This document shows, in pieces, positions 7,654 to 62,580 of a DNA stretch of 64,000 nt (positions are counted from its first letter, which is position 1; every line of letters begins with the position of its first letter). The position numbers were made by a program, and so were the translations under genes. The notes under the pieces are model-generated. The model was given only the letters and a program-made list of their open reading frames with translations, was not told where the DNA came from and searched no databases. The stretch spans positions 5,776 to 69,775 of the forward strand of contig DAIMCS010000001.1 of assembly GCA_036726225.1 (NCBI GenBank), given 5' to 3'. This DNA is from Patescibacteria group bacterium (GTDB taxonomy: Bacteria > Patescibacteriota > Doudnabacteria > UBA920).

Positions 7654-10600
7654 ATGACCCGCCTCTATACTACATACACCATCACAGACCCCAGGGCTAG
7701 ACTTAAAAAAAACCAGTTTGAAGCCTTGGGACTAAAAAACAAAATAGGAGCAGTGTATCTTGCGGACTGTTACACAATTGATGCTAAGCTGGACTCAAAA
7801 AAACTTGAAAAGGCAAAACACCTGCTTGCAAACCCGCTCATCCAAAAAACCCACACTAATCCCTCCACGCTACCCGCTACCCGCTTTTCCCACGCCATAG
7901 AAATTGGCTTTTTACCCGGAGTTACCGACAACGTTGGGCATACTGCCAGGGAAACATTGCAGGACGGCGCCAAGATAAAATTTAAACCTGGACAAAACGT
8001 TTACACGTCCCAGGTCTTTTTTATTTCAGGAAAAATTTCTTTTGCCGATGCAAATAAGATTGCATTGAGCCTGCATAATCCCCTAATCCAGAAGGCTAGT
8101 ATTACTTCTTGGGATGATTTTAAAAAAACCGGTCTTGGGTCTGGAATCCCGAAAGTTAAAATTAAATCCTCAAATAAAATTTTAAAGGTAAATTTAAATG
8201 TGGGCGATGAAGAACTGGCAAAACTTGGGAAGCTGGGAATTCCGGACTACCCCATTCCCGCGAAAGCGGGAATCCATAAAAATGGATCCCCGATCAAGTC
8301 GGGGATGGAAGAAAAGCGACGGGGCCCACTTGCTCTATCGCTGGGTGAACTAAAAGCAATTCAGGCTCACTTTAAAAAGCTGGGCAGACAGCCGACAGAT
8401 GTAGAATTAGAAGCCCTGGCCCAAACCTGGTCTGAGCACTGTAAGCACACAATTTTTTCCGATCCAATTGATGAAATTAAAGAGGGAATTTTTAAACATT
8501 ACATAAAGCGCGCCACTGAAGTAATCCGGAAAAAAAAGGGCCGTAAAGATTTTTGCGTCTCCGTCTTTACCGACAACGCGGGCGGAATTAGTTTTGACTC
8601 CAAAAATATTATTGCTTACAAAGTCGAAACCCATAACACGCCTTCGGCCTTAGACCCTTTTGGCGGCTCAATTACAGGCATTGGCGGAGTTAATCGCGAC
8701 GCTTTGGGTTTTGGCCTGGGCGCAAAACCGGTGGCAAATTTTTACGGCTTTTGTTTGGCTGACCCGGGGGACAAAACAAAATTATATCGTGACAAGCAAC
8801 TTAAAAACCCAATGCTTTCCTCCCGCAGGATTATGGACGGAGTTGTAGCGGGAATTAACGCGGGAGGTAACCAAAGCGGCATCCCCACGCCTTTGGGTTT
8901 TTTGTTTTTCGATTCTAGATACAGAGGCAAGCCTTTGGTGTTTGCAGGAACTTTAGGATTAATCCCCAAAAAAATTGGTAACAAAAAATCCTGGGTAAAA
9001 AAAGCCGAAAGCCAAGATTTAATAGTGATGGTCGGGGGTCGGGTCGGAATGGACGGCATTCACGGCGCTACGTTTTCATCTGAAGGGCTTTCTTCCCACT
9101 CCCCCGCAACCGCCGTGCAAATTGGCGATCCCATTACCCAAAAAAAGTTTTCTGATACTATTTGCAAAGAGGCAAGGGATTTAAATCTTTACAATTCTAT
9201 TACCGACTGCGGCGCCGGAGGAATTTCCAGCGCTGTTGGTGAAATGGCCAAAGAAGCCGGCGGCTGTTTAGTAGAGCTGGATAAAGTTCCGGTAAAATAT
9301 CCGGGCCTGGCACCCTGGCAAATTTGGATTTCAGAGTCGCAGGAAAGAATGGTTTTAGCCGTGCCAAAAAACAAATGGCAAAAATTTTTAAAGCTAATGA
9401 ACGCCAGAGGTGTAGAAGCCACGGTAATTGGCAAGTTTACTCAAGATAATAAATGCGTTGTTAAATACAACGGCAAAAACGTTTTAGATTTAGAAATGGA
9501 ATTTTTACACAACGGCCGGCCAAAGCAGCAGCAAACAACCCGTAAGTCAAAACCCGTAACTCATAAACTGATACTACAAAATAAAAAAGATTTTTCTGCT
9601 GACGTATTAAAAATGTTAGCGCGACTAAACATAACTTCCACAGAATTTGTTAACACCCAGTATGACCACGAAGTCCAAGGCACATCAATTTTAAAACCAC
9701 TCCAAGGCCGCGGCAAAATTAACTCCGAAGCCGCGGTAATTCGCCCTTTGCTGGATTCTAAAAAAGGCGTTGTGCTTTCTTATGGGCTTAATCCTCTACT
9801 TTCAGAAACTGACGCTTACAAAATGTCAGCCAATAGTATAGATGCGGCAATTCGTTCTGCTGTGGCCGCGGGAGCAAATGTTAATTACATGGCGATATTA
9901 GATAACTTCTGTTGGTGTTCACCTCACGATCCAAAAAGACTTTATCAACTTAAAAAAGCAGCCCAAGCCTGCTTTGATATTGCCACTGCTTACGGCACGC
10001 CGTTTATTTCGGGCAAAGACAGTATGCACAACGACTTTAAAGGTTTTGGAAATGACGGTAAACCTTTAAAAATATCAATCCCGCCAACTCTATTAATAAC
10101 CACAATGGGAGTTATAGAGAATGTAGAAAAAGCAATTTCTCTCGATGTTAAACTGCCGGGCGACTTACTCTATATATTAGGAGAGACAAATAACGAACTG
10201 GCCGGAAGCGAATACCTTAATTATGTCATTCCCGCGCAGGCGGGAATCCAAAAACTTGGGATTACTCCAAGTGTTAACACTGATAAAAACCTAAAACTCT
10301 ACCGCTCTTTCTATCAGGCAGTACAAAACAACCTTGTAGCATCCGCCATAAGTGTAAACCGCGGCGGACTCGCTGTTGCTGTGTCAAAATCGGTAATGGG
10401 CGGCGGCCTTGGCGTACAAATTGACCTTAAAAATTTACCGGGAAACTGGAAAGTCAACGCAGAAGGTTTATTTTCAGAAAGTGCCGGCAGAATTTTGGTG
10501 AGCGTGGCCCCTCAAAACGCACAGAAGTTTGAAAAACTTATGCATGGAAATGTATTTGCAAAAATCGGACAAGTGGGGAAAAATCCAAAGCTCGTGATAA

Positions 10601-14616: not shown

Positions 14617-15964
14617 TATCATGTCCGCCGAAGGCGCCCGCCTGCCCGGCCGGCAGGGATCCGCCTCTGGCGGAAAAAAAATCCTAATAATTGGCGGAGG
14701 TGGACGTGAGCATGCTTTGGCTTGGAAAATTAAACAATCTCCGCAAGTGGAGAAAATTTTTATTGCGCCCGGTAACGCAGGGACGGCAGAGGTTGGGGAA
14801 AATGTCGCTATACCTATTAGTGATATAGGCGAGCTTGCCCAGTTTGCTTTAAAAAGCCAAATTGACCTTACTGTAGTTGGCCCGGATGACGCCCTGGCCG
14901 CCGGGATAGTAGACGCTTTTTTGGAAAAAAATTTAAAAATTTGGGGGCCGGTTAAAGCTGCTTCCAAAATAGAATGGTCAAAAAGTTTTGCTAAAGAATT
15001 AATGAGCCGGCAAAACATTCCCACGGCCCATTACAAAACCTTCACAGACTATAACCTCGCCTGGGCTTACATTAAGCCTCAATTCTTGCCTGTGGTAATT
15101 AAAGCCTCCGGCTTGGCATTAGGCAAAGGCGTAACCATTTGCCACACTATGGAAGAAGCCGAAGAGGTGTTAAGAGATTTAATGATAAATAAAACCCTTG
15201 GACAAGCCGGGACAGAAGTGGTCATTGAACAATTTCTACAAGGACCGGAATTCTCTATCCACGCGTTTTGTGACGGAGAAAATTTTAAACTTCTGCCGCC
15301 CGCCCAAGACCACAAATCCATATTCAACGGAGACAAAGGCCCTAACACCGGCGGTATGGGCACCATTGCTCCCCTACCTTGGGTTAGCCAAGAGCTGCTA
15401 AACGAAGTCGCAGAAAAAATAGTTAAACCAACCCTGGAGGGCTTAAAAAAACTAGGTTCGCCTTTTGTTGGGCTACTGTATCCGGGGTTAATGCTAACCA
15501 AAGAAGGACCAAAAGTTATTGAATTTAACGCCCGGTTTGGGGACCCTGAAACCCAAAGTTTAATGCGATTGCTCAAAACTGACCTTTTGGAAATTTTGGA
15601 AGCGTGTGTGGATGGTAATTTGGATAAATTAAATATAGAGTGGAACAACAAATACGCCTGCTGCATTGCCCTGGCCTCGGGCGGATATCCGGGAAAGTAT
15701 GAAAAAGGATTACCCATTTCTGGAATCGAAGAAGCCTCAAAAATGGAAAATGTAATTGTTTTCCACGCCGGAACAAAAATCAGCGATGATCAACTTGTCA
15801 CTAATGGCGGCAGAGTTTTAGGAGTCAGCGTAACAGCTGATAATTTAAAATCCGCGCTTGATAAAGCCTACGAAGCAGCAAAATTAATCCACTTTGATGG
15901 AATGCATTACAGAACGGACATCGGCGCCAAATCGCTTGACTACTCACTAACCACTACTCACTAA
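14609..15964 (+). CDS. purD: phosphoribosylamine--glycine ligase PurD, with an N-terminal roughly 19-aa extension encoded by a GC-rich hairpin insert
   Basis: KILIIGGGGREHALAWK… ATP-grasp fold; the extension …LPGRQGSASGGK precedes the canonical start region. Confidence 0.9.
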   Translation: MGNIMSAEGARLPGRQGSASGGKKILIIGGGGREHALAWKIKQSPQVEKIFIAPGNAGTAEVGENVAIPISDIGELAQFALKSQIDLTVVGPDDALAAGIVDAFLEKNLKIWGPVKAASKIEWSKSFAKELMSRQNIPTAHYKTFTDYNLAWAYIKPQFLPVVIKASGLALGKGVTICHTMEEAEEVLRDLMINKTLGQAGTEVVIEQFLQGPEFSIHAFCDGENFKLLPPAQDHKSIFNGDKGPNTGGMGTIAPLPWVSQELLNEVAEKIVKPTLEGLKKLGSPFVGLLYPGLMLTKEGPKVIEFNARFGDPETQSLMRLLKTDLLEILEACVDGNLDKLNIEWNNKYACCIALASGGYPGKYEKGLPISGIEEASKMENVIVFHAGTKISDDQLVTNGGRVLGVSVTADNLKSALDKAYEAAKLIHFDGMHYRTDIGAKSLDYSLTTTH

Positions 15965-15990
15965 CCACTACTCACTAACCACTACTCTTA
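15947..15990. repeat. 14-bp tandem repeat (actcactaaccact) x3 at the purD stop / HAD-gene upstream
   Basis: Direct reading of ctactcactaaccactactcactaaccactactcactaaccactactc. Confidence 0.8.
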
Positions 15991-17812: not shown

Positions 17813-18955
17813 ATGCCCAGCCAATATTCTAAAGACGGCGTGAACGTAGAAGAAGAATCTAAATTCAGCTCGTTTGCCGGAAAAATTTGTAAAGGTTCCT
17901 ACCAAAACTCCCCCTTTGTGGAAGTCCACGACTTTTCCGGCGGGCATTTTAGGGGCCCGCGTCCGTTTACTTTTAAAAACTTGCCCGAAGGCTACTTTAT
18001 AGAAGCCACAACTGACGGCATGGGCACCAAAGGCGTGCTTGTAGACGCAGCAAAAACCCATGAGCAGGCGGCTTACGATATTGTTGCTATGACTTCCAGT
18101 GACGTTACCCGTTTTGGCGGCATCCCTTTGGTCTTTATTAATGTGCTCGACGTTGTCGCGGTTGGAAATGAAGGCGACGAAGTCAGCAACCAATATAAAA
18201 AACTTCTATCGGGTTTAGGTAAAGTATCGGGCGAAGCAAAAATAGTTTCGCTTAAAGGTGAAACCGCGCAAATGGGAGTGTTTGTTGGTTCGGACTGGCA
18301 AGAGTCTAAAACCCGCTTTAACTGGTCAGCCACAATGATTGGCGCGTACCACAAAGATAAAATGATAACCGGAGAATCACTGCGAGACGGCCAGGTTATT
18401 ATCGCTCTAAAAGAACAAGGATTTAGGTGCAACGGCATAAGTGCGGTTAGAGCTGCGCTTAAAGATAAATTTGGCGAGAGATGGTACGAAAATAAAGATG
18501 CTCAAAAAAGCATAAAACTTGCGGCCGCCCCTTCCCTTCTTTATGACGTATTTATAAACACCATACACGGCTGGTACGACAAAAATTTTCAGGCTGAAGT
18601 AAAAATCCACGGTCTGGTCCACCTTTCCGGCGGCGGCATAAAAGAAAAATTGGCAAAAGATATGTTGCTTCCCAGGTCTCTTTCGGCCGAACTTACGGAT
18701 TTATACGATCCGCCGCAAATTATGAAAGACTGTGCCGCCTGGCATAATATAGATGACGAAGAATTTTACGAAGTCTGGAACGGCGGCCAGGGTATGCTGC
18801 TAATAGTAAAGGAGAAAGATGCCGAAACCACAATAAAAAGAGCGAACGATTTTGACCTACAGGCAAAAATTTGTGGTAAAATAACCAAAGCAGCAAAACC
18901 ACAAGTTGTAATTGATTCAAAATTAAATCCTGGCAAGAAAATTATTTATGAATAA
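17813..18955 (+). CDS. purM: phosphoribosylformylglycinamidine cyclo-ligase PurM (AIR synthetase)
   Basis: N-terminal YSKDGVNVEE and PurM-like N- and C-terminal domains. Confidence 0.85.
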   Translation: MPSQYSKDGVNVEEESKFSSFAGKICKGSYQNSPFVEVHDFSGGHFRGPRPFTFKNLPEGYFIEATTDGMGTKGVLVDAAKTHEQAAYDIVAMTSSDVTRFGGIPLVFINVLDVVAVGNEGDEVSNQYKKLLSGLGKVSGEAKIVSLKGETAQMGVFVGSDWQESKTRFNWSATMIGAYHKDKMITGESLRDGQVIIALKEQGFRCNGISAVRAALKDKFGERWYENKDAQKSIKLAAAPSLLYDVFINTIHGWYDKNFQAEVKIHGLVHLSGGGIKEKLAKDMLLPRSLSAELTDLYDPPQIMKDCAAWHNIDDEEFYEVWNGGQGMLLIVKEKDAETTIKRANDFDLQAKICGKITKAAKPQVVIDSKLNPGKKIIYE

Positions 18956-19913
18956 AGAAGTTATATCGCAAGTCCTGCATAAAGTTATTGAAACCACTAA
19001 TTTTAAACACATTGGTCAAAGGCGCCAGGGCAAAGTGCGCGATGTCTACACGCAGCCGGATAAAATTATTTTGGTTTCCACCGACAGGTACAGCGCGTTT
19101 GATAGAAACTTGGCGTTAATTCCTTTCAAAGGCCAAATACTTACTCAAGTAAGCCGCTGGTGGTTTGAAAAGACCGAGGATATTATCCAAAACCATTTAA
19201 TCAGCTCTCCCGATCCAAATGTAGTTGTAGTAAAAAAATGTTCGGTGATCCCTATTGAGATGGTCGTGCGAGGCTACATTACAGGCGTTACGGGCACGAG
19301 CCTTTGGACACTATACAACAACGGCCAGCGGGATTTTGGCGACTTTGTCTTGCCGGAAGGTATGAAAAAAAACCAAAAACTGGAAAAACCGGTTTTAACG
19401 CCCACCACAAAGTCTGACGACCACGACGCACCGCTTACCACTAAAGAAATTATCGAAAAACAAATTGTATCAAAAGAGCTTTGGGAACAGTTGGCAGACA
19501 CCGCCATAAAACTTTTTACCCGCGGCCAGGAACTTGCGTTACAACACGGACTTATTTTAGTGGATACTAAATATGAATTTGGTTTAACGGAAGACGGTAA
19601 ATTGATGTTGATTGATGAAATCCATACACCCGACTCTTCGCGATATTGGCAGGCAGACTCCTATCAATCCAGGATAGACCAAGGGCAAGAGCCGCAAAAT
19701 TTCGACAAAGAATTTCTGCGTCTTTGGTTTAAACAAAACTGCGATCCATACAAAGACGAAGTATTACCACAAGCTCCGGCGGATATGATAGCCGAACTTT
19801 CTTCCCGCTACATTCAAATTTTCGAACAAATTACCGGGCAAAAATTTGAAGCGGATTTAAACACCCCCGCACTTCAAAGAATAGAAAACAACCTTAATAG
19901 CTATCGGTTGTAA
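18948..19913 (+). CDS. purC: phosphoribosylaminoimidazole-succinocarboxamide synthase PurC (long form)
   Basis: GKVRDVY…LVSTDRYSAFD SAICAR synthetase motifs; overlaps purM by 8 nt. Confidence 0.9.
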   Translation: MNKEVISQVLHKVIETTNFKHIGQRRQGKVRDVYTQPDKIILVSTDRYSAFDRNLALIPFKGQILTQVSRWWFEKTEDIIQNHLISSPDPNVVVVKKCSVIPIEMVVRGYITGVTGTSLWTLYNNGQRDFGDFVLPEGMKKNQKLEKPVLTPTTKSDDHDAPLTTKEIIEKQIVSKELWEQLADTAIKLFTRGQELALQHGLILVDTKYEFGLTEDGKLMLIDEIHTPDSSRYWQADSYQSRIDQGQEPQNFDKEFLRLWFKQNCDPYKDEVLPQAPADMIAELSSRYIQIFEQITGQKFEADLNTPALQRIENNLNSYRL

Positions 19914-19918
19914 ACATG

Positions 19919-20325
19919 CCTCCCTCCCCTGGAGGGGGAGGGCTGGGGAGGGGTGAATGACAAACCACACAACTCAAATATCAAGAAAGCTGCGCAATAA
20001 TCTAACCGAAGCAGAAAAAAAGCTATGGTATTATTTACGCAACAACAATCTCGGTGAAAAATTCAGAAGACAGCAACTTATTGGTACGTATTACGTCGAC
20101 TTTATCTGCCTAAAAAAATACTTAATTATTGAAGTTGACGGCGGGCAGCATTACGATTCTGCTGATGATAAAATTAGAGATAATTTTTTCAAAAAAGAAG
20201 GTTTTACAGTTTTAAGATTTTGGAACAATGAAGTTTTAGAAAACATTGAGGAAGTGTTAGAAAAAATCAAGGCTTATTTATAATTCATCACCCTCCCCTA
20301 ACCCCTCCCCTCAAGGGAGGGGAAT
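19919..20325 (+). mobile_element. GGGAGGGG palindromic element (copy E1) carrying a DUF559 endonuclease gene in its central loop
   Basis: Left arm 19919-19956 (CCTCCCTCCCCtggaGGGGGAGGGctgGGGAGGGGTGA) and right arm 20284-20325 (TCACCCTCCCCtaaCCCCTCCCctcaaGGGAGGGG) match the empty copies at 25145, 30988 and 35941. The ORF fills the spacer exactly, with its ATG abutting GGTGA and its TAA abutting TTCATCACCC. Confidence 0.6.
19957..20283 (+). CDS. DUF559 endonuclease-domain protein (Vsr-like / PD-(D/E)XK fold)
   Basis: 108 aa; YYVDF…IIEVDGGQH…D..R…L…G..VLRFWN signature of DUF559. Confidence 0.8.
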   Translation: MTNHTTQISRKLRNNLTEAEKKLWYYLRNNNLGEKFRRQQLIGTYYVDFICLKKYLIIEVDGGQHYDSADDKIRDNFFKKEGFTVLRFWNNEVLENIEEVLEKIKAYL

Positions 20326-20334
20326 AAAACAATT

Positions 20335-21723
20335 ATGCTTACATCCATATCCCCCATTGACGGCCGCTACGAAAAACAAACAGATGCACTAAAAGCCTTT
20401 TTTAGTGAGCAGGCTTTAATGCGTTACAGGATTATTGTTGAAGGCGAATATTTTATTGCCCTTTCCCAAAGCAAACTGGGCAAAAGAAAACTTTCTGATA
20501 AAGAAAAAAAGTTAGTGCGCTCCTTATACGAGCCCAAAGGAAGTGATGCACAAATTATTTCCGATATTGAACGAAAAGGCCACAAAGGCATCCCGGCAAC
20601 AAACCACGATGTTAAAGCCGTGGAATATTTTATTAAACTAAAACTTAAAAATACTTCTTTAAAAAATGTTTTGGAATGGGTGCATTTTGGTCTAACTTCC
20701 GAAGACGTAAACAACCTCTCATATGCCTTAATGCTTAAAGACGGTATTACCCGGGGCCTAATGCCTTCACTTAATGAAATTATTCTTAACTTAACCTCAC
20801 AGGCAAAAAAATACAAAAACTTGCCTATGCTCAGCCGAACCCACGGTCAGCCTGCGTCCCCAACCACTTTTGGCAAAGAAATGAGGGTCTTTAAAGAAAG
20901 ATTGCAAAGACAAGCAAACAAATTAAAATCCCAAACCATCCTCTGTAAATTAAACGGTGCCAGCGGCAACTACAACGCGCATATGGCCGCATTTCCAAAA
21001 GTTAACTGGATTAAATTCTCCCAAAAATTTATTAGTCATCTAAATTCCCTTGGACCCAAAACCTTTTTGAATCTAGAACCTAACCTCTACACCACGCAAA
21101 TTGAACCGCACGACTCATACATAGAAATTTTTGATACTTTCCGCCGCATCAACACCATTTTAGTAGACTTTAACCAGGACATTTGGCGCTATATAAGCGA
21201 TGGCTGGATTACGCAAAAAACAGTAGCCGGAGAAATTGGCTCTTCTGCTATGCCCCATAAAGTCAACCCAATTAACTTTGAAAACAGCGAAGGCAACTTA
21301 GGTTTGGCTAACGCGCTATTTAATCATTTTGCTAATAAGTTGCCCATATCAAGATTGCAAAGAGATCTTTCCGATTCCACCGTGCAAAGAAATTTTGGCA
21401 CGGCTTTGGCACACTCTATAATTGCTTATAAATATTTACTAAAAGGTTTGGCGAAAATTTCTCCCGACCCTCAAAAGATGGCGGCGGATTTGGAAAAACA
21501 CCCGGAAGTTATTGCCGAAGCCATTCAAACCGTTTTGCGCAGAGAAGGAGTAAAAATGCCTTACGAACAGTTAAAAGAACTCACGAGGGGCGAGAATGTG
21601 ACACTCAATGACATTCATCGATTTATAAACAATTTGGAAATCAGCGACAGGGTAAAAAAGGAACTTAAAGAATTTACTCCCCACAGTTACACCGGACTGG
21701 CAAGCAGGCTTGCCCAATCTTAA
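20335..21723 (+). CDS. purB: adenylosuccinate lyase PurB
   Basis: SPIDGRY N-terminus; fumarate-lyase signature region (GSSAMPHKVNP). Confidence 0.9.
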   Translation: MLTSISPIDGRYEKQTDALKAFFSEQALMRYRIIVEGEYFIALSQSKLGKRKLSDKEKKLVRSLYEPKGSDAQIISDIERKGHKGIPATNHDVKAVEYFIKLKLKNTSLKNVLEWVHFGLTSEDVNNLSYALMLKDGITRGLMPSLNEIILNLTSQAKKYKNLPMLSRTHGQPASPTTFGKEMRVFKERLQRQANKLKSQTILCKLNGASGNYNAHMAAFPKVNWIKFSQKFISHLNSLGPKTFLNLEPNLYTTQIEPHDSYIEIFDTFRRINTILVDFNQDIWRYISDGWITQKTVAGEIGSSAMPHKVNPINFENSEGNLGLANALFNHFANKLPISRLQRDLSDSTVQRNFGTALAHSIIAYKYLLKGLAKISPDPQKMAADLEKHPEVIAEAIQTVLRREGVKMPYEQLKELTRGENVTLNDIHRFINNLEISDRVKKELKEFTPHSYTGLASRLAQS

Positions 21724-21793: not shown

Positions 21794-22687
21794 ATGGAAA
21801 CAAAATCGTCTGGAATAAAAACTGCTTTTTTCATATTGCTGGCTCTTGCGCTGGTTGTTTTAGCTCTGGCCCAAATCCCCATTAATTGGCCCGACTTAAC
21901 TTTTGCCATTTTAGAACCTAAAGGGCTGATTGCAGAAAAGCAGCGCTGGTTAATAATTGCCGCCACTTTAATAATGCTAATTGCAGTGGCGCCGACATAT
22001 TTTTTTCTTTTTTATTTTTCAAAAAAATACAAAGCCGAAAAACAGGATGTTAACTACTCCCCAAATTTAACCAGTAACGCGAAATCCTCTTTTTTCCTTT
22101 GGGCTATACCGGTTGCGATAATTTTTGTAATTTCTATAATTATTGTAAAAAGCACTCATGAGTTGGATCCTTACAAGCCAATTGCATCTGCCAAAAAACC
22201 GCTGACTGTACAAGTAGTATCTTTAAGGTGGAAATGGCTTTTTATTTATCCCGAGCAAAATATAGCGACGGTTAACTTTATGCAAATTCCGGCGAACACG
22301 CCCATAAACTTTGAACTGACTTCCGACGGGCCAATGAACACTTTTTGGATCCCGCAGTTAGGCGGACAAATTTATACCATGGCAGCCATGAGCACCAAAC
22401 TGCATTTAATTGCCAACGAGACCGGAAATTTTGAAGGCCAGTCTTCCGAAATAAGCGGCAAAGGTTATTCCGGTATGCGTTTTAAAGTTAAGGCAACAAG
22501 CCGGGGAGAATTTGATGCGTGGGTAAAGGAAGTAAAAAACTCCCCTCAAATGCTGCACAAAGAGCAATACAACGAGCTCTTAGAGCCCAGTGAAAATCAT
22601 GAGCAAACCAATTATTCTATGGTGGAAAAAGACCTGTTCAATAGTATAATTATGAAGTATATGAGTCCTACAGAAATGGCTAAGTAA
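21794..22687 (+). CDS. cyoA: cytochrome o (bo3-type) ubiquinol oxidase subunit II, CuA-less
   Basis: Two N-terminal TM helices plus cupredoxin domain. SSEISGKGYSGMRFKVKATSRGEFDAWV matches CyoA and lacks the CuA Cys/His ligands. Confidence 0.8.
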   Translation: METKSSGIKTAFFILLALALVVLALAQIPINWPDLTFAILEPKGLIAEKQRWLIIAATLIMLIAVAPTYFFLFYFSKKYKAEKQDVNYSPNLTSNAKSSFFLWAIPVAIIFVISIIIVKSTHELDPYKPIASAKKPLTVQVVSLRWKWLFIYPEQNIATVNFMQIPANTPINFELTSDGPMNTFWIPQLGGQIYTMAAMSTKLHLIANETGNFEGQSSEISGKGYSGMRFKVKATSRGEFDAWVKEVKNSPQMLHKEQYNELLEPSENHEQTNYSMVEKDLFNSIIMKYMSPTEMAK

Positions 22688-23147
22688 GATATTTATAGAT
22701 ATTAGGATATTAATAGATACTATGGAAAGCAAACCTAATTATATTTCATTGCAGAATTTGGAAGTTTATCAGCTGTCACGGGAGTTGTCGCGAATAGGTT
22801 GGGAGATTTATCAAACTTTGGATTGGAAGATGCAAAAGATTAATGGTGATCAGTTTATAGAGTCAACGGATTCAACTGGGGCAAATATTGCCGAAGGTTA
22901 CGGAAGATTCCACTACCTCGATAGGATTAAGTTTTATTACAATGCGCGCGGTTCTTTTTTAGAATGCAATGAACATTGGATTGAATTGTTAAAAGAAAGA
23001 GGTCAGGTACCGGAAGAACTTTATAATCAATATAAACAAACGGCTGAAAAGTTTTCAAAAAAACTCAATAATTTCATCCATAGCACTTATCAAAGCAAAG
23101 CGAGCGAAGCTGATTAATATCCCAATATCAAATATCCAAATATCTTT
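22688..23147 (+). mobile_element. four-helix-bundle gene cassette flanked by inverted GATATT/AATATC iteron arrays
   Basis: Left 22688-22721 (GATATTtataGATATTaggATATTaatAGATACT); right 23118-23147 (TATCccAATATCaaATATCcaAATATCttt) is its approximate reverse complement. The cassette lies between cyoA and cyoB. Confidence 0.45.
22722..23117 (+). CDS. four-helix-bundle protein (TIGR02436, former '23S rRNA intervening-sequence protein' family)
   Basis: EVYQLSRELSRIGWEIY…GANIAEGYGRFHYLDRIKFYYNARGSFLECNEHW signature. Confidence 0.8.
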   Translation: MESKPNYISLQNLEVYQLSRELSRIGWEIYQTLDWKMQKINGDQFIESTDSTGANIAEGYGRFHYLDRIKFYYNARGSFLECNEHWIELLKERGQVPEELYNQYKQTAEKFSKKLNNFIHSTYQSKASEAD

Positions 23148-25136
23148 ATGAGCTCTTTAATTCTAGGCAATTTAACCTGGTCAGCACTCCCCCACGAATG
23201 GTTTACCGTTGGCGGGGCGGTTTCCATGACGCTTGGCGGTTTAACAGTCATATTTTTACTTACCTACTTTAAACGCTGGAAATGGCTGTGGAATGAATGG
23301 CTGACTTCCACTGACCCAAAAAAAATTGGGATTATGTACTTTGTAGTGGCTGCGCTTATGCTTACGCGCGGCGCGCTGGATGCCGGAATGATCTGGCTGC
23401 AGCAAACTCTTTCGGCCGGCGCAGGCACCGGGTTTTTAAGCGCCGAACATTTCCAGCAAATCTTTACCGCGCACGGCGCCATTATGGTCTTTTTTGTGAC
23501 CATGGGTTTTTTGGCCGGGCTCTGGAATTTTATTTTGCCTTTGCAAATTGGCGCGCGCGACGTCGCTTTCCCGCTTCTAAATACTTTAAGCTTTTGGTTG
23601 TTTGTTGCAGGCGCTATTTTAATGAATATGTTTTTCTTCCTTGGCGGAGAATTTTCTGCCGTGGGCTGGCTGGCTATTGCCCCGCTTTCCGGCATTGAGT
23701 TTAGTCCCGGCGTGGGGGTGGATTATTGGATATGGAGCCTGCAAATTTCAGGTCTTGGCACGCTGCTTGCGGGCGTAAACTTTATGGTCACAATTTTAAA
23801 AATGCGCGCCCCAGGAATGACTTTAATGCGTATGCCGCTTTTTGTCTGGAACGGGCTCTTAAGCCAAGTGCTAATACTTTCCGTTTTCCCTATTTTAGCA
23901 ATGACGCTAATTCTGCTTACGCTCGACAGAACTTTTGGCGCTCACTTTTTCACTTCTACCCACGGCGGCAACCCTATGCTTTACACCAACCTCATTTGGT
24001 CGTGGGGCCACCCGGAAGTTTATATTTTAATGATCCCGGCTTTTGGGGTGTATTCCGAAATTGTTTCCACCTTTAGCCAAAAAAAACTTTTTTCCTACAC
24101 GTCATTAGTTGCGGCTGCAATAATTATTACCCTCTTTTCTGTACTGGTTTGGCTGCACCACTTCTTTACCATGGGCGCGGGCGCAAATGTTAACGCTTTC
24201 TTTGGCATAATGACCGGCATAATTGCCATTCCCACCGGAGTCCAGGTTTTTTCCTGGCTGGCCACAATGTACAAAGGCAAAATTATTTTCCGCACGCCGC
24301 TGTATTGGTTTATTGGTTTTGTTGCCACCTTTACGCTGGGCGGCATGGCGGGAGTCATTTTAGGAATCCCCGGAGCTGACTTCCAGCTGCACAACAGTTT
24401 ATTTTTAGTCGCCCACTTCCACACTATGGCAATTGGCGGCGCGCTGTTTGGAATTTTCGCAGCTATTTCTTATTGGTTCCCCAAAATTACCGGTTTTAAG
24501 TTAAACGAAAAATTAGGGCGGTACGCTTTTTGGCTTTGGATTGTTGGCTTCCTCGTTTCGTTTATGCCTCTGTATATATTAGGTTTTATGGGCGCGTCCC
24601 GCAGGCTGGACCATTACGACGCCTCCTTAGGCTGGCAACCCCTGTTTGCCATAGCCGGTTTTGGTTTTTTAATTATTTGCGCAGCCGTTGCTATGCAGCT
24701 TTGGCAAATAGTTTACAGCTTTATTAAAAAAAGTGAAAATTTAGATGTTACCGGTGACCCGTGGAATGGCCGGGCTCTGGAGTGGGCCACAGCTTCCCCT
24801 CCCCCAATTTATAATTTTGCAGTTATCCCAAACGTAACCGATAAAGACGCGTTTTGGGAAATGAAAGCCAGCAGATCAGCAGATCAGCAGATCAGCAGAT
24901 CAGCTAAATACGAAGACATTCATATGCCCAAAAATACAGCAATGGGAATTTATATTTCCGCCTGCGCATTCCTGTTTGGCTTTGGTTTTGTCTGGCACAT
25001 TTGGTGGCTGGTTATTGCATCTTTAATTGCAGCAATTATTTTAATAATCACCCGTTCTTTTGACCAGGAGACCGAATACGTAATTACCGCCGCAGAAGTC
25101 GCTAAGATAGAATCGGAGCATAAAAGTTTTTACTAA
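23148..25136 (+). CDS. cyoB: cytochrome o ubiquinol oxidase subunit I (heme-copper oxidase)
   Basis: 662 aa; many TM helices; canonical HCO subunit I His ligands (…WSWGHPEVYIL…, HFHTMAIGG…). Confidence 0.9.
   Translation: MSSLILGNLTWSALPHEWFTVGGAVSMTLGGLTVIFLLTYFKRWKWLWNEWLTSTDPKKIGIMYFVVAALMLTRGALDAGMIWLQQTLSAGAGTGFLSAEHFQQIFTAHGAIMVFFVTMGFLAGLWNFILPLQIGARDVAFPLLNTLSFWLFVAGAILMNMFFFLGGEFSAVGWLAIAPLSGIEFSPGVGVDYWIWSLQISGLGTLLAGVNFMVTILKMRAPGMTLMRMPLFVWNGLLSQVLILSVFPILAMTLILLTLDRTFGAHFFTSTHGGNPMLYTNLIWSWGHPEVYILMIPAFGVYSEIVSTFSQKKLFSYTSLVAAAIIITLFSVLVWLHHFFTMGAGANVNAFFGIMTGIIAIPTGVQVFSWLATMYKGKIIFRTPLYWFIGFVATFTLGGMAGVILGIPGADFQLHNSLFLVAHFHTMAIGGALFGIFAAISYWFPKITGFKLNEKLGRYAFWLWIVGFLVSFMPLYILGFMGASRRLDHYDASLGWQPLFAIAGFGFLIICAAVAMQLWQIVYSFIKKSENLDVTGDPWNGRALEWATASPPPIYNFAVIPNVTDKDAFWEMKASRSADQQISRSAKYEDIHMPKNTAMGIYISACAFLFGFGFVWHIWWLVIASLIAAIILIITRSFDQETEYVITAAEVAKIESEHKSFY
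24869..24904. repeat. 8-bp tandem repeat (gcagatca) x4.5 inside the cyoB coding region (encodes SRSADQQISRSA)
   Basis: Direct reading of cagcagatcagcagatcagcagatcagcagatcagc. Confidence 0.85.
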
Positions 25137-25144
25137 AAAATAAA

Positions 25145-25229
25145 TTCCCTCCCCTTGAGGGGGAGGGCTAGGGAGGGGTGAAATCAAAAATTATCACCCT
25201 CCCCTAACCCCTCCCATCCAGGGAGGGGA
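25145..25229. repeat. GGGAGGGG palindromic element copy E2 (empty), between cyoB and cyoC
   Basis: TTCCCTCCCCttgaGGGGGAGGGctaGGGAGGGGTGA-aatcaaaaat-TATCACCCTCCCCtaaCCCCTCCCatccaGGGAGGGGAA. Confidence 0.8.
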
Positions 25230-25240
25230 AAGAAAGTACC

Positions 25241-25834
25241 ATGGAAGAAACCACTAATCAAAACCAGCTCGGCCATCACGACGACAGCAAAACCCAACTC
25301 GGGTTTTGGATTTACCTAATGACCGACCTAATGATGTTTGCCACCCTGTTTGCAACCTACGCCGCGCTCTCGGGCAGCACATTTGGCGGGCCCTCGGGAG
25401 CCGAACTTTTTAGCCTGCCGGACGCACTTAAACTTACCCTCATTTTACTGACCAGCAGTTTTACCTGCGGCCTGGCCATGCTTGCGGCGCACAAAGCAGA
25501 CAAAAAACAAACCATTTTTTGGTTTGTAATTACACTGATTTTGGGTTTGTCCTTTTTATTTTTTGAATTAAAAGAATTTTCTCACTTAATTGCCGAAGGC
25601 CACGCCTGGAAAAATAGCGCATTCCTCTCTTCCTTCTTTGCGCTCGTAGGCACCCACGGGTTGCACATTGCAGTAGGAGGGCTTTGGATACTTGTAGCCT
25701 TAAAACAAATTACACATTTGGGCTTAAACGGATTTGTAATCTCCAAACTCACCCGCTTAAGCCTTTACTGGCACTTTTTAGACATTGTTTGGATTTTTAT
25801 TTTTACTATTGTGTACCTAATGTCACAAGTTTAA
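25241..25834 (+). CDS. cyoC: cytochrome o ubiquinol oxidase subunit III
   Basis: 197 aa, 5 TM; heme-copper oxidase subunit III-like. Confidence 0.8.
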   Translation: MEETTNQNQLGHHDDSKTQLGFWIYLMTDLMMFATLFATYAALSGSTFGGPSGAELFSLPDALKLTLILLTSSFTCGLAMLAAHKADKKQTIFWFVITLILGLSFLFFELKEFSHLIAEGHAWKNSAFLSSFFALVGTHGLHIAVGGLWILVALKQITHLGLNGFVISKLTRLSLYWHFLDIVWIFIFTIVYLMSQV

Positions 25835-30987: not shown

Positions 30988-31092
30988 ATTCCCTCCCCTT
31001 GAGGGGGAGGGATTGGGAGGGGTGAAGTCAAAATCATCACCCTCCCCCTGCCTGCCGGCAGGCAGGCTAACCCCTCCCATCCAGGGAGGGGA
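30988..31092. repeat. GGGAGGGG palindromic element copy E3 (empty; extra internal palindrome CCTGCCTGCCGGCAGGCAGG)
   Basis: Same arms as E1 and E2; spacer agtcaaaatca. Confidence 0.8.
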
Positions 31093-35940: not shown

Positions 35941-36032
35941 TTCCTCCCCCTTGATGGGGGAGGTTAGGAGGGGGTGAAGGATAAAAAAACTTTATCACCC
36001 TCCCCTGCCGGCAGGCAGGCTCGGAATGACAT
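35941..36032. repeat. GGGAGGGG palindromic element copy E4 (right hairpin replaced by CCTGCCGGCAGGCAGG…CGGAATGACAT)
   Basis: Left arm TTCCTCCCCCttgatGGGGGAGGttaGGAGGGGGTGA and TCACCCTCCCC right half. Confidence 0.7.
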
Positions 36033-37037: not shown

Positions 37038-37131
37038 TCTCTCCAATGCTTGGAGAGATGTCGCCGAAGGCGACAGAGAGGTTAGTTCTTAGAATCAACC
37101 TCTCCCTAGCCCTCCCCAAGTCTTGGGGAGG
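37038..37131. repeat. array of four consecutive perfect hairpins in the XRE→DUF2975 intergenic spacer
   Basis: TCTCTCCAatgcTTGGAGAGA; TGTCGCCgaaGGCGACA; GAGAGGTTagttcttagaatcAACCTCTC; CCTCCCCAagtcTTGGGGAGG. Confidence 0.7.
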
Positions 37132-37147
37132 GAATTTAATTTGTAAA

Positions 37148-37360: not shown

Positions 37361-37433
37361 TTCCATCCCCGACCCCGATCGGGGATCCAACTAAATGCTT
37401 TAGAACTGGATTCCCGCCTCCGCGGGAATGGAA
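37361..37433. mobile_element. MITE-like hairpin element (CCCCGAtcGGGG core plus TTCCCGCctccGCGGGAATGG)
   Basis: Near-identical module TTCCCGCcttcGCGGGAATGG at 62553-62577 and a nested version at 62364-62404. Confidence 0.5.
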
Positions 37434-42171: not shown

Positions 42172-42244
42172 CAAAATTTCCTAAAACCTACCCCCGACCT
42201 TAGAGGTCGGGGGTTTTTGTTTGCCTGAAATACTCTGGTATACT
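42172..42244 (+). repeat. 73-bp direct repeat copy 1 (terminator CCCCCGACCttagaGGTCGGGGG+T-run, plus TTGTTT-16-TATACT promoter-like module)
   Basis: Identical to 44546-44618; the two copies flank the LamG/Fn3 gene. Confidence 0.85.
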
Positions 42245-42381
42245 CAAAAATAAATAAAAAATAAAACTCAACTATTTATAACTAAAGTTATAGCTCTATA
42301 TTTAGAGGGCACACACTAGCTTTTTTTTAAGAATTTGTTATCATAGAATATTAGATTCATTAACTAATTAACTTGATACCT

Positions 42382-44545: not shown

Positions 44546-44618
44546 CAAAATTTCCTAAAACCTACCCCCGACCTTAGAGGTCGGGGGTTTTTGTTTGCCT
44601 GAAATACTCTGGTATACT
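44546..44618 (+). repeat. 73-bp direct repeat copy 2 (terminator plus promoter-like module)
   Basis: Identical to copy 1. Confidence 0.85.
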
Positions 44619-44644
44619 TTAAATGTAAGAAAAAATAAAGCCCA

Positions 44645-62490: not shown

Positions 62491-62580
62491 TGTCGTCCCG
62501 GAATCGCAATTTATTGCGATATCCGGGATCTAAGGCCCTGGCTTTGTTTTTCTGGATTCCCGCCTTCGCGGGAATGGACA
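62491..62580. mobile_element. MITE-like element (TGTCGTCCCGGAATCGCAAtttatTGCGATATCCGGGAT … TTCCCGCcttcGCGGGAATGGACA)
   Basis: Two hairpin modules, both with paralogs elsewhere in the window. Confidence 0.5.

What the first reader, a model, noticed from the sequence alone, without database searches (positions are those of the whole stretch)
19919..20325. Family of about 95-bp GGGAGGGG palindromic elements (4 copies); one carries a DUF559 endonuclease gene exactly in its central loop
Four intergenic copies (19919-20325, 25145-25229, 30988-31092, 35941-36032) share the architecture [CCCTCCCC-loop-GGGGGAGGG]-ctaGGGAGGGGTGA-(spacer)-TCACCCTCCCCTAA-[CCCCTCCC-loop-GGGAGGGG]. In three copies the spacer is 10-17 bp. 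In the copy between purC and purB the spacer is a complete 108-aa DUF559 (Vsr-like nuclease fold) ORF, with its ATG abutting GGTGA and its TAA abutting TTCATCACCC. Two explanations fit: the palindrome is the mobile vehicle (or footprint) of the DUF559 gene, or DUF559 is a homing-type nuclease that targets or spreads with this repeat. Two copies sit inside conserved operons (pur, cyo) without disrupting them, and the element supplies an SD-like GGGAGGGG to the downstream gene.
Basis: seen in the sequence. Interest (0 to 1): 0.7.

Follow-up and report, generated by a model that had tools for sequence, protein, structure and literature searches.

The report
Nuclease gene nested in BoxC-type repeat
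A small nuclease gene of unknown function (DUF559) sits exactly in the middle of a palindromic repeat whose two arms are "BoxC/PIT" triplex-forming motifs, orphan repeats known since the 1990s; the same pairing recurs across many bacterial phyla, which suggests this nuclease is the repeats' long-missing partner enzyme.

Summary
Window 19919-20325 is a 108-aa DUF559 gene (Pfam E=1.5e-37) bracketed by two inverted ~38-nt arms. ORF-less copies lie at 25145-25229 and 30988-31092.

Each arm (C-block, loop, complementary G-block, linker, mirror-image G-block) has the architecture of the published BoxC/PIT/"TM" intrastrand-triplex motif, a repeat with no known mobility enzyme.

The pairing is general. 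Of 54 DUF559 loci from Patescibacteria, Proteobacteria, Geobacter and others, 32 carry such a motif on both sides and 12 on one (0.015 expected per flank).

At purC-purB the element is an old insertion. Four distant relatives have a 10-35-nt spacer. One relative keeps the same element with all six blocks identical although synonymous sites are saturated (DUF559 dN/dS about 0.06). A closer relative lacks it.

Best reading (confidence about 0.5): a REPIN/RAYT-like partnership between triplex-motif repeats and a low-copy Vsr-fold nuclease. Rivals are a homing endonuclease or a host structure-processing nuclease.

The claim that the element supplies an SD to downstream genes is not supported. I found no published link between DUF559 and these repeats.

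The parts
19919..19956 (+). Left arm of the filled element. It is a triplex-type motif: b1 CCCTCCCC (19922-19929), loop TGGA, b2 GGGGGAGGG (19934-19942), linker CTG, b3 GGGAGGGG (19946-19953), then TGA. b3 also provides a GGAGG 5 nt upstream of the DUF559 ATG.
19957..20283 (+). DUF559 ORF, 108 aa, a Vsr-fold PD-(D/E)XK nuclease. D48, E59, D61 and H65 are invariant among homologues.
20284..20325 (-). Right arm. On the minus strand it reads b1 CCCCTCCC, loop, b2 GGGAGGGG, linker TTA, b3 GGGGAGGG, TGA. The position of the A is flipped in all three blocks relative to the left arm, so each arm keeps its own mirror symmetry.
25145..25229 (.). ORF-less inverted doublet between cyoB and cyoC. The left arm is 25147-25181, the spacer AATCAAAAATTA 25182-25193 and the right arm 25194-25228. 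It folds as three hairpins.
30988..31092 (.). ORF-less doublet in a divergent intergenic region. Its right arm is split by an unrelated nested palindrome (GCCTGCCGGCAGGC at 31050-31063).
35941..36020 (+). Truncated copy. The left arm is complete (CCTCCCCC/GGGGGAGG/GGAGGGGG) and is followed by a 17-nt spacer and the inner C-block TCACCCTCCCC. The outer right hairpin is replaced by the CCTGCCGGCAGGC palindrome.
37040..37136 (.). Fifth, variant copy. The right outer hairpin is CCCTCCCC...GGGGAGGG and the inner stem is GAGAGGTT...AACCTCTC. On the left there are two other hairpins. The DNA fold has z = -7.9.
   Evidence: (I17)

Best explanation
The window carries a family of inverted doublets of BoxC/PIT/TM-type triplex motifs. 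The copy at 19919-20325 is the 'master' form, with the family's cognate nuclease gene (DUF559) filling the space between the two arms.

Shown here:
(i) Each arm is a C-block/G-block hairpin followed by a third G-block that is the mirror image of the second, which is the rule for an intrastrand purine-motif triplex.
(ii) DUF559 genes across many phyla are bracketed by two such motifs in inverted orientation. The block sequences co-vary by lineage, and ORF-less doublets are scattered nearby.
(iii) The purC-purB element is an insertion relative to distant relatives. It is retained at the same site in a diverged relative, with all six blocks unchanged and the gene under strong purifying selection, and it is absent from a closer relative.
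(iv) The gene is low-copy (1-2 per replicon) while the repeats are many.

Inferred: DUF559 is a structure- or sequence-specific nuclease. It recognises the folded arms (hairpin/triplex in transiently single-stranded DNA, or the palindromic duplex) and nicks or cuts at or near them. Host replication and repair then copy, convert or delete doublets. The repeat family therefore persists and spreads only where the nuclease is present. This is the logic of REPIN populations and their RAYT gene, but with a hydrolytic PD-(D/E)XK enzyme and triplex-type ends. Block b3 doubles as the gene's SD, and its pairing with the distal C-block could keep expression low.
For: - Architecture and mirror rule. Mirror beats direct repeat in 130 of 165 asymmetric motifs, against 32 for direct.
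- Identity with the published class: Holder et al. 2015 (PMC4666352) give the E. coli motif CCCTCNCCC-N3-6-GGGNGAGGG-N3-GGGNGAGGG, show a triplex by CD/NMR, report 5 inverted doublets in K-12, and state that no mobility function was found.
- Association: flanking inverted-repeat score exceeds the 99th percentile of 289 control ORFs in 40 of 53 loci.
- Strict motif on both sides in 32 of 54 loci and on one side in 12, with 0.015 expected per flank.
- 32 of 34 convergent motif pairs spaced 250-700 nt enclose a DUF559, and 17 ORF-less doublets lie in the same loci.
- A paralogue, apparently in the same genome, has the same bracket.
- S. meliloti has the classic bracket. Deinococcus and Synechocystis are bracketed in the reverse arm configuration. 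K. pneumoniae, N. gonorrhoeae and E. coli ycjD show partial or degenerate arms.
- History at the site: unoccupied purC-purB junctions of 10-35 nt in L070, L071, L080 and L081.
- The orthologous element in L159 has identical blocks and different loops, with dS saturated and DUF559 dN/dS about 0.06.
- The element is absent in the closer relative L161/L162.
- Low gene copy number: 43 of 72,556 plasmid records match, with 1-2 places per multi-Mb replicon. E. coli has 1-2 ycjD places against a median of 15 motif hits per genome.
- E. coli trend: phylogroups A/B1/C carry ycjD (PMC12817139) and have 19-30 motifs. B2 strains lack it and have 0-2. D/E/F strains have 6-15. O157:H7 lacks ycjD and has 12; ST131 has 1.
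- Nuclease fold: 3HRL E=2e-24. Foldseek gives 3HRL TM 0.74/0.85 and the catalytic domain of homing endonuclease I-Bth0305I TM 0.68/0.74.
Against: - No biochemical activity is known for any DUF559 of this subfamily, and nothing here shows that it binds or cuts the arms.
- A hydrolytic nuclease cannot rejoin DNA, so the copying step is hypothetical.
- No target-site duplication or clean insertion boundary was found. The E. coli hrpB-mrcB doublet differs from the empty allele by a ~102-bp indel with diverged edges.
- 10 of 54 homologous loci, mostly the most distant ones, have no motif.
- ORF orientation relative to the two arm types is not fixed: window X-ORF-Y, L001 and L015 Y-ORF-X. Deinococcus and Synechocystis have the arms in the reverse configuration. 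Gene and arms are therefore separable modules.
- The E. coli correlation rests on very few independent evolutionary events. Genomes lacking ycjD still hold up to about 15 motifs.
- Other motifs in the ±10 kb flanks are not significantly clustered near the gene.
Confidence: 0.5

Rival explanations
1. DUF559 is a free-standing homing endonuclease. A dimer recognises the palindromic centre of an empty doublet (b3-spacer-b3') and cuts it. Repair from a filled copy then installs the ORF exactly in the middle. The doublets are pre-existing targets, not products of the enzyme.
For: - The ORF sits precisely in the centre of the palindrome, with 3-8 nt to spare on each side.
- The ORF occurs in either orientation relative to the X/Y arm types, as expected for a palindromic target.
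- The closest characterised structure is the catalytic domain of homing endonuclease I-Bth0305I.
- The whole unit is inserted in frame into PriA and IleRS in some Alphaproteobacteria.
- There is presence/absence polymorphism at the purC-purB site.
Against: - Empty doublets with intact arms persist a few kb from the gene.
- The two copies found, apparently from one genome, are only 66% identical, so no recent homing is visible.
- There are 1-2 copies per replicon in general.
- The gene has been kept at one locus under strong purifying selection (dN/dS about 0.06) while synonymous sites saturated. This is unlike the invasion-decay cycle of homing genes.
- The model does not explain how the ORF-less doublets spread.
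Confidence: 0.2
2. DUF559 is a host-beneficial, Vsr-like repair or structure-processing nuclease. It relieves replication or repair problems caused by triplex or hairpin-forming repeats. Its gene is embedded in a doublet only because such repeats accumulate or are tolerated there. It does not mobilise them.
For: - The gene shows strong purifying selection and vertical retention.
- PIT elements block DNA polymerase in vitro, and motif loci are unusually variable among E. coli strains (PMC4666352).
- One DUF559 protein, Caulobacter VsrA, behaves as a Vsr-like enzyme linked to a cytosine methyltransferase (PMC12907096).
Against: - The two-sided, inverted bracket is precise and fits the ORF to within a few nucleotides in 32 of 54 loci across phyla. 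Passive accumulation does not explain this.
- The gene and arms are inserted together as a unit into coding genes.
- No methyltransferase gene is adjacent here.
- The fold match to Vsr proper is weak, with Foldseek E 0.1-0.4.
Confidence: 0.12
3. The arms are ordinary cis-regulatory hairpins, such as terminators, attenuators or mRNA-stabilising structures like REPs in operons. They happen to flank a small gene, and the repeat family and DUF559 have no functional relationship.
For: - The ORF-less copies lie between genes of operons (cyoB/cyoC) and fold stably.
- b3 could serve as the gene's SD.
Against: - The enrichment at DUF559 flanks is roughly 50-fold over background, and it is conserved from Patescibacteria to Proteobacteria with co-varying block sequences.
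- Mirror symmetry of the third block has no role in a terminator.
- PIT elements showed no promoter or terminator activity in published tests (PMC4666352).
- No Rfam family matches.
Confidence: 0.04

Closest known systems
BoxC / PIT (potential intrastrand triplex) / TM_ECO repeats of E. coli and other bacteria (Bergler 1992; Hoyne/Maher 2000; Holder et al. 2015, PMC4666352)
   Same: - The three-block architecture is the same: a C-rich block, a 3-6-nt loop, a complementary G-rich block, a ~3-nt linker and a second G-rich block.
- They occur as solo units and as inverted doublets.
- They are intergenic, multi-copy and variable between strains.
- E. coli BoxC no. 9 lies about 170 nt downstream of ycjD, the E. 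coli DUF559 gene.
   Different: - The window blocks are 8-9 nt, GGGGAGGG/GGGAGGGG. This is asymmetric, which exposes the mirror rule. They do not fit the 9-nt GGGNGAGGG consensus, so they are a sister variant rather than TM_ECO itself.
- The published work reports no associated protein and states that no mobility function was found.
- Triplex formation by the window sequence is untested.
REPIN-RAYT systems (REP doublets and their REP-associated tyrosine transposase)
   Same: - A low-copy nuclease gene is flanked by inverted copies of the same short structured repeat that is dispersed through the genome as ORF-less inverted doublets.
- The gene is inherited vertically under purifying selection.
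- Repeat abundance tracks presence of the gene (a trend in E. coli).
   Different: - The enzyme is a hydrolytic PD-(D/E)XK Vsr-fold nuclease, not an HUH/Y1 IS200-like transposase.
- The repeats are hairpin plus third-strand (triplex-type) motifs without the GTAG/CGTC tags.
- No in vitro activity on the repeats has been shown.
Free-standing / intron-borne homing endonucleases of the Vsr-like EDxHD class (I-Bth0305I, PDB 3R3P)
   Same: - They share the catalytic fold (Foldseek E=3e-4, TM 0.68/0.74).
- The ORF occupies the centre of a symmetric site.
- In-frame invasion of housekeeping genes is seen in relatives.
   Different: - There is no intron or intein context and no extra DNA-binding domain (108 aa in all).
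- The gene has been retained long-term under selection instead of following an invasion-decay cycle.
- Empty sites coexist with the gene.
Rickettsia palindromic elements (RPE) and MITEs
   Same: - These are short palindromic elements that insert between genes of operons.
- In alphaproteobacterial relatives they insert in frame inside essential genes: PriA, IleRS and a cysteine desulfurase-like gene.
- ORF-less copies resemble deletion derivatives of an ORF-bearing copy.
   Different: - RPEs have no known cognate protein.
- MITEs depend on DDE or other transposases and leave target-site duplications, which were not seen here.
Vsr very-short-patch repair endonuclease (E. coli Vsr, PDB 1VSR/1CW0) and Caulobacter VsrA
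   Same: They belong to the same superfamily and share a similar metal-binding core. JGI annotates many homologues as 'very-short-patch-repair endonuclease'.
   Different: - There is no Pfam Vsr hit, only DUF559/MTES_1575.
- The fold match is weak (E 0.1-0.4).
- There is no neighbouring cytosine methyltransferase.
- The genomic context is a repeat, not a restriction-modification or dcm locus.

Membership tests
DUF559 (Pfam PF04480) | Match to the family profile above the curated cut-off | tested here: met
   128.2 bits against a cut-off of 20.6, E=1.5e-37, covering residues 5-106.
DUF559 (Pfam PF04480) | Conserved acidic/histidine core (D...ExDGxxH) and the fold of the solved member 3HRL | tested here: met
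   D48, E59, D61 and H65 are invariant in 22- and 30-sequence alignments. 3HRL matches at E=2e-24 by sequence. The AF2 model (pLDDT 85) matches 3HRL with TM 0.74/0.85 and rmsd 1.7.
BoxC / PIT / TM class II (C-G-G) intrastrand triplex motif | Three consecutive blocks: a pyrimidine block, a loop, a complementary purine block, a short loop and a second purine block able to lie antiparallel to the first purine block (mirror repeat) | tested here: met
   The window arms fit with 0-1 mismatch to the mirror and 1-4 mismatches to a direct copy. Across loci the mirror fits better in 130 motifs and the direct copy in 32. At least 18 different block sequences obey the rule.
BoxC / PIT / TM class II (C-G-G) intrastrand triplex motif | The TM_ECO consensus 5'-CCCTCNCCC N3-6 GGGNGAGGG N3 GGGNGAGGG | tested here: not met
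   The window blocks are CCCTCCCC / GGGGAGGG / GGGAGGGG. The proteobacterial loci L022, L029, L036, L052 and S. meliloti do fit it.
BoxC / PIT / TM class II (C-G-G) intrastrand triplex motif | Formation of a stable intrastrand triplex by the single strand (CD/NMR) | not testable with these tools
   This has been shown only for the E. coli sequence in PMC4666352. ViennaRNA predicts only the hairpins.
REPIN-RAYT system | Nuclease gene flanked by inverted copies of the dispersed repeat, with ORF-less inverted doublets elsewhere in the genome | tested here: met
REPIN-RAYT system | The enzyme is an HUH/Y1 (IS200/IS605 TnpA-like) transposase | tested here: not met
   Pfam gives only DUF559/MTES_1575, and the fold is PD-(D/E)XK.
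REPIN-RAYT system | Single or low copy number, vertical inheritance, purifying selection | tested here: met
   There are two 66%-identical paralogues, apparently in one genome. Replicons carry 1-2 copies. The element is orthologous in L159, with dN/dS about 0.06.
Homing endonuclease gene | The nuclease cleaves the uninterrupted (empty) version of its own insertion site | not testable with these tools
   This needs a cleavage assay on 25145-25229 or a synthetic empty doublet.
Homing endonuclease gene | Sporadic distribution with recent, near-identical copies and degenerating copies | tested here: not met
   The paralogues are 66% identical, the copy is long-retained and selected, and empty sites are left unfilled. 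The E. coli ycjD locus does show a degenerate arm and a duplicated 3' fragment.
IS / MITE | Terminal inverted repeats plus target-site duplication | tested here: inconclusive
   Inverted ends are present. No duplication was seen at the E. coli hrpB-mrcB presence/absence pair. The relatives at the window sites are too diverged to define the edges.
Vsr (PF03852) very-short-patch repair endonuclease | Profile match, and linkage to a C5-cytosine methyltransferase | tested here: not met
   There is no Vsr hit in Pfam. The neighbours are purC and purB. Foldseek to 1VSR/1CW0 gives E 0.12-0.37.

The most novel reading that the evidence does not exclude
DUF559 proteins of this subfamily are structure-specific nucleases for intrastrand triplex/hairpin DNA. 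Together with BoxC/PIT/TM repeats they form a previously unrecognised, pan-bacterial repeat-plus-nuclease system. It runs from Patescibacteria to E. coli (YcjD) and Neisseria (NGO0050). It is analogous to REPIN-RAYT but built on a hydrolytic Vsr-fold enzyme, and it can lodge in frame inside essential genes such as priA and ileS.
Probability: 0.4. Interest if true: 0.92.

Novelty: new variant of a known kind. Interest (0 to 1): 0.8.

Why it matters
BoxC/PIT/TM repeats have been known since 1992. They are present in hundreds of genomes and were shown to fold into triplexes in vitro. They have no known function, origin or mobilising enzyme, and the main survey explicitly found none.

DUF559 is one of the large, widespread 'unknown function' nuclease families. 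It includes E. coli YcjD and a solved but unexplained Neisseria structure.

Linking the two gives each a concrete, testable hypothesis in a model organism: ycjD and the 23 BoxC copies of K-12. It would add a second, mechanistically different example of the repeat-plus-resident-nuclease lifestyle so far represented by REPIN-RAYT. It could also yield a nuclease that recognises triplex or hairpin DNA.

The in-frame copies inside PriA and IleRS further suggest a route by which such elements remodel essential proteins, as RPEs do in Rickettsia.

Tried and rejected
- Rfam scan of 19-38 kb at E<=1 returned only sub-threshold miRNA-like hairpin hits, so no known RNA family matches.
- Strain-level presence/absence at purC-purB: all 18 contigs with the identical purB carry the element or break at it. 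No recent polymorphism is visible.
- Target-site duplication: the E. coli hrpB-mrcB doublet differs from the empty allele by a ~102-bp indel with diverged edges and no duplication. A third allele is an internal deletion that leaves one hairpin.
- Local hopping: the other motifs in the ±10-kb flanks fall in distance bins as 10, 11, 6, 8 and 4, which is no convincing decay. The clustering of five copies in 17 kb of the window may be chance.
- Plasmid or phage carriage as a vehicle: only 43 of 72,556 plasmid records match, mostly chromids or mislabelled chromosomes and mostly non-mobilisable. Viral collections were not scanned.
- Defence-system membership: PADLOC gave only a marginal DpdF hit at E=6e-4.
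- SD-donor idea for downstream genes: rejected on spacing, 14-17 nt.
- G-quadruplex reading: each arm has four G-tracts, so it is possible. It does not explain the mirror symmetry, so the triplex reading is preferred.
- Direct cross-tabulation of ycjD against motif count over all 5,426 E. coli genomes could not be extracted from the tool output. Only named lineages were compared.
- Literature searches for DUF559, COG2852, YcjD, Vsr-like+REP, BoxC and intrastrand triplex found no paper linking the gene family with the repeats. The library lacks most subscription journals, so prior mention cannot be excluded.
Full report
OBSERVATION.

The filled copy reads CCCTCCCC-TGGA-GGGGGAGGG-CTG-GGGAGGGG-TGA|ATG ... 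TAA|TTCA-TCA-CCCTCCCC-TAA-CCCCTCCC-CTCAA-GGGAGGGG. The enclosed 108-aa ORF (19957-20283) is a full-length DUF559 domain (Pfam E=1.5e-37). It lies between purC and purB.

A second copy lies between cyoB and cyoC. Spacers in the ORF-less copies are 12, 11 and 17 nt.

The pattern exceeds chance. GGGAGGGG occurs 10 times against 1.9 expected. A strict three-block detector finds 10 motifs, about 8 of them from this family, against 0-2 in shuffles. The ORF-less copies fold as three hairpins with z = -4.2 to -7.9.

Three corrections apply. Copy 4 lacks its right outer hairpin. Copies 3 and 4 carry an unrelated nested palindrome, GCCTGCCGGCAGGC. A fifth variant copy lies at 37040-37136. All five copies sit within 17 kb.

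Homologues of purB are named Nomurabacteria, Paceibacterota and Patescibacteria. The window is therefore from a CPR bacterium known only from soil metagenomes, on contigs up to 508 kb.

ANATOMY OF AN ARM. Each arm has three blocks.
- b1 is C-rich.
- b2 is its complement, 3-5 nt away.
- b3, 1-3 nt further on, is a second G-rich block.

b3 is not a copy of b2. It is b2 read backwards: left arm GGGGAGGG then GGGAGGGG; right arm (minus strand) GGGAGGGG then GGGGAGGG.

The two arms are therefore not exact reverse complements of each other. The A/T position is flipped in all three blocks, so each arm keeps its own internal mirror symmetry at the expense of perfect arm-to-arm pairing.

Across 188 motifs found in 873 kb of related loci, the mirror fits better than a direct repeat in 130 cases and worse in 32. 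At least 18 different block sequences obey the rule, often with A replaced by T in b3. An example is GGGGGAGGA followed by AGGTGGGGG.

Mirror symmetry of a third purine block is what an intrastrand purine-motif triplex requires. A hairpin, terminator or G-quadruplex does not require it.

WHAT THE ARMS ARE. A text search for the proteobacterial block sequences led to Holder et al. 2015 (PMC4666352).

The motif CCCTCNCCC-N3-6-GGGNGAGGG-N3-GGGNGAGGG has been called BoxC (1992), then PIT, then TM_ECO.
- It has 23 copies in E. coli K-12, five pairs of them as inverted doublets.
- The paper counted 3,610 copies in 262 proteobacterial genomes.
- It forms a stable triplex as a single strand in vitro.
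- Earlier tests found no promoter or terminator activity.
- Motif loci are unusually variable between strains.

That paper contains no mention of endonuclease, DUF or Vsr. It states that no mobility function was ever found near the motifs. The window arms are an 8-nt sister variant of this class.

THE ASSOCIATION IS GENERAL. A 66%-identical paralogue lies between nusA and clpP, apparently in the same genome: it occurs in the same samples and has the same longest-contig length. It has the same bracket, ATTCCCCTCCCC-TTGT-GGGAGGGG-CTA-GGGGAGGGG-TAACA|ATG ... TAA|CCCCCTCCC-TAA-CCCTCCCC-ACAA-GGGGGAGGG.

A scan of one genome per species returned 54 loci at 38-80% protein identity. They come from Patescibacteria, Alpha-, Beta- and Gammaproteobacteria, Geobacter, Methylomirabilis, FCPU426, Melainabacteria and others. 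The counts below also use L001 and the window and leave out two fragmentary loci.
- The best inverted repeat between the two flanks exceeds the 99th percentile of 289 control ORFs in 40 of 53 loci, median 45 against 18.
- With the strict motif definition, 32 of 54 loci have a motif on both sides in convergent orientation, 12 on one side and 10 on neither. Expectation is 0.015 per flank.
- Of 34 convergent motif pairs spaced 250-700 nt, 32 enclose a DUF559, with an inner gap of 328-447 nt.
- 17 ORF-less doublets with 13-52-nt spacers lie in the same loci.

Block sequences differ by lineage, but the architecture is constant.

S. meliloti shows the classic bracket. Deinococcus and Synechocystis have the arms in the reverse configuration, with the C-block and hairpin upstream and the hairpin and G-block downstream. 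K. pneumoniae and N. gonorrhoeae have partial arms.

The loci without motifs include the most distant homologues, at 38-44% identity.

HISTORY AT purC-purB.
- Four relatives (purC 60-66% identical) have purC and purB 10-35 nt apart with no element.
- A relative with purC 77% and purB 68% identical (L159) has the same element at the same place, with the same arm types. All six blocks are identical to the window, while every loop and linker differs.
- Between these two genomes, synonymous sites are saturated. DUF559 has dN/dS about 0.06 and purC 0.04.
- A closer relative (L161/L162; purC 85%, purB 74%) has no element. It has only two unrelated AT-rich hairpins in a 69-nt spacer.

The element is therefore an old insertion. 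The gene and the blocks are both under selection, or under concerted evolution. It was later lost once, or less parsimoniously gained twice.

THE PROTEIN. D48, E59, D61 and H65 are invariant. The closest solved structure is the uncharacterised N. gonorrhoeae NGO0050 (3HRL, E=2e-24).

An AF2 model (pLDDT 85) matches 3HRL (TM 0.74/0.85). Next comes the catalytic domain of homing endonuclease I-Bth0305I (E=3e-4, TM 0.68/0.74). Vsr itself matches only weakly, at E 0.1-0.4.

The gene is low-copy. Multi-Mb replicons carry 1-2 places, and it is rare on true plasmids.

E. COLI. ycjD is the E. coli DUF559 gene.
- Its stop codon lies in a degenerate C-block/hairpin.
- A duplicated 3' gene fragment follows.
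- BoxC no. 9 lies about 170 nt downstream. BoxC was first noticed in this very fabI (envM) region.
- ycjD is present in 3,378 of 5,426 complete genomes.
- Genomes lacking it lose homology about 40 nt before BoxC no. 9.

According to PMC12817139, phylogroups A, B1 and C carry ycjD, while B2 and most D and E strains carry eefRABCD instead. The phylogroup of each named strain below is from my own knowledge.
- Holder's tables give 19-30 motifs for A/B1/C strains, 0-2 for B2 strains and 6-15 for D/E/F strains.
- My BLAST of a type-A motif gives 1-29 hits per genome with a median of 15. O157:H7 has 12 and ST131 has 1.

The direction fits a model in which the repeats need the nuclease. It rests on very few independent events.

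IN-FRAME COPIES. In three alphaproteobacterial MAGs the whole unit lies in frame in PriA, between the 3'-DNA-binding domain and the helicase. In a Rickettsiales MAG it lies in frame in IleRS, which also carries further ORF-less motifs and a GNAT domain. Solo motifs also sit in frame in a cysteine desulfurase-like gene. This resembles Rickettsia palindromic elements.

MECHANISM. The following is shown:
- a conserved physical unit of arm, nuclease gene and arm;
- ORF-less doublets alongside it;
- selection on the gene and on the blocks;
- triplex-type covariation;
- insertion and loss at a defined site.

The following is inferred. The nuclease recognises the folded or palindromic arms and cuts there. 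Host repair or replication then copies, converts or deletes doublets.

I favour a REPIN/RAYT-like relationship (confidence about 0.5). The gene is low-copy, old and constrained, while the repeats are many and empty doublets survive next to it.

A homing-endonuclease model (0.2) explains the exact central position and the fact that ORF orientation relative to the two arm types is not fixed (window X-ORF-Y; L001 and L015 Y-ORF-X). It does not explain the unfilled doublets or the long-term selection.

A host structure-processing nuclease (0.12) and a purely cis-regulatory coincidence (0.04) fit less well.

b3 is instead well placed as the SD of DUF559 itself.

NOVELTY AND CAVEATS. The repeat class and the protein family are each known. 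Their pairing, the mirror-rule covariation, the reversed configuration and the in-frame copies were not found in any paper of the searchable library. That library omits most subscription journals.

No activity of the enzyme on the repeats has been shown, and no insertion mechanism or target duplication was found. The set of 54 loci was gathered with peptide patterns from this protein. It therefore samples one DUF559 subfamily, not the whole Pfam family.

Noticed in passing
window 22722-23117: A 131-aa 23S_rRNA_IVP (PF05635, four-helix-bundle) ORF sits alone between cyoA and cyoB. It is a second small 'guest' gene inside the cyo operon. No palindromic arms are visible around it.
   Followed up: partly
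window 8254-8273, 10228-10247, 37410-37429, 62556-62575: A separate hairpin repeat family, ATTCCCGC-N4-GCGGGAAT, has 4 copies against 0 expected. One copy lies about 270 nt from the fifth triplex-motif copy.
   Followed up: partly
window 31050-31063 and 36003-36016: The palindrome GCCTGCCGGCAGGC is nested inside or replaces part of the right arm of copies 3 and 4. This gives a mosaic organisation reminiscent of BIMEs.
   Followed up: partly
window 42172-42271 and 44546-44645: A 100-nt direct repeat at 92% identity contains a G+C-rich hairpin (CCCCCGACC...GGTCGGGGG) followed by a T-run. The two copies are 2.4 kb apart.
   Followed up: no
window 15932-15990 and 60970-61025: There are two short arrays of 14-nt tandem repeats: ACTAACCACTACTC and TCTACTGTGTACTG.
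   Followed up: no
L014 9578-12202, L016 9479-12235, L023 9488-12247, L028 2888-7576: DUF559 with its arms is inserted in frame into PriA in three alphaproteobacterial MAGs and into IleRS in a Rickettsiales MAG. The IleRS frame also contains ORF-less motif insertions and an in-frame GNAT acetyltransferase domain.
   Followed up: partly
L158 (Deinococcus psychrotolerans, paaD-paaZ) and L156 (Synechocystis sp. B12 plasmid): The arm configuration is reversed here: the C-block and hairpin lie upstream of DUF559, and the hairpin and G-block downstream. In Deinococcus the inverted repeat extends about 16 nt beyond the outer blocks.
   Followed up: partly
L031, L035, L037, L046; E. coli Table 1 of PMC4666352: A recurrent internal G·A mismatch occurs in the hairpin, CCCTCGCCCC opposite GGGGAGAGGG. 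It is conserved in Marinobacter, FCPU426, Magnetospirillum, Hyphobacterium and 15 of 23 E. coli copies. A conserved mismatch next to a Vsr-fold (mismatch-nicking) relative may be meaningful.
   Followed up: partly
L065 1541-2400 (E. coli K-12 fabI-ycjD-sapF): ycjD is preceded by a perfect 16-bp hairpin (CACCTCATTCTGACAA...TTGTCAGAATGAGGTG). It is followed by a duplicated fragment of its own 3' end before BoxC no. 9. This suggests two decayed tandem elements.
   Followed up: partly
window 21794-25834 and 17813-21723: A cytochrome o-type quinol oxidase operon (cyoABC) and purine biosynthesis genes (purM, purC, purB) lie in what looks like a Patescibacteria genome. This is unusual metabolic content for that group.
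   Followed up: no
L161 660-736, L162 640-715: In the closest relative lacking the element, the purC-purB spacer holds two unrelated AT-rich hairpins, ATGCTGAA...TTCAGCAT and GTTCTGAA...TTCAGAAC. The same junction may be a recurrent landing site for palindromic elements.
   Followed up: no
L042 9477-9903 (Aliikangiella MAG): Three ORF-less doublets lie in tandem immediately upstream of the DUF559 gene.
   Followed up: no
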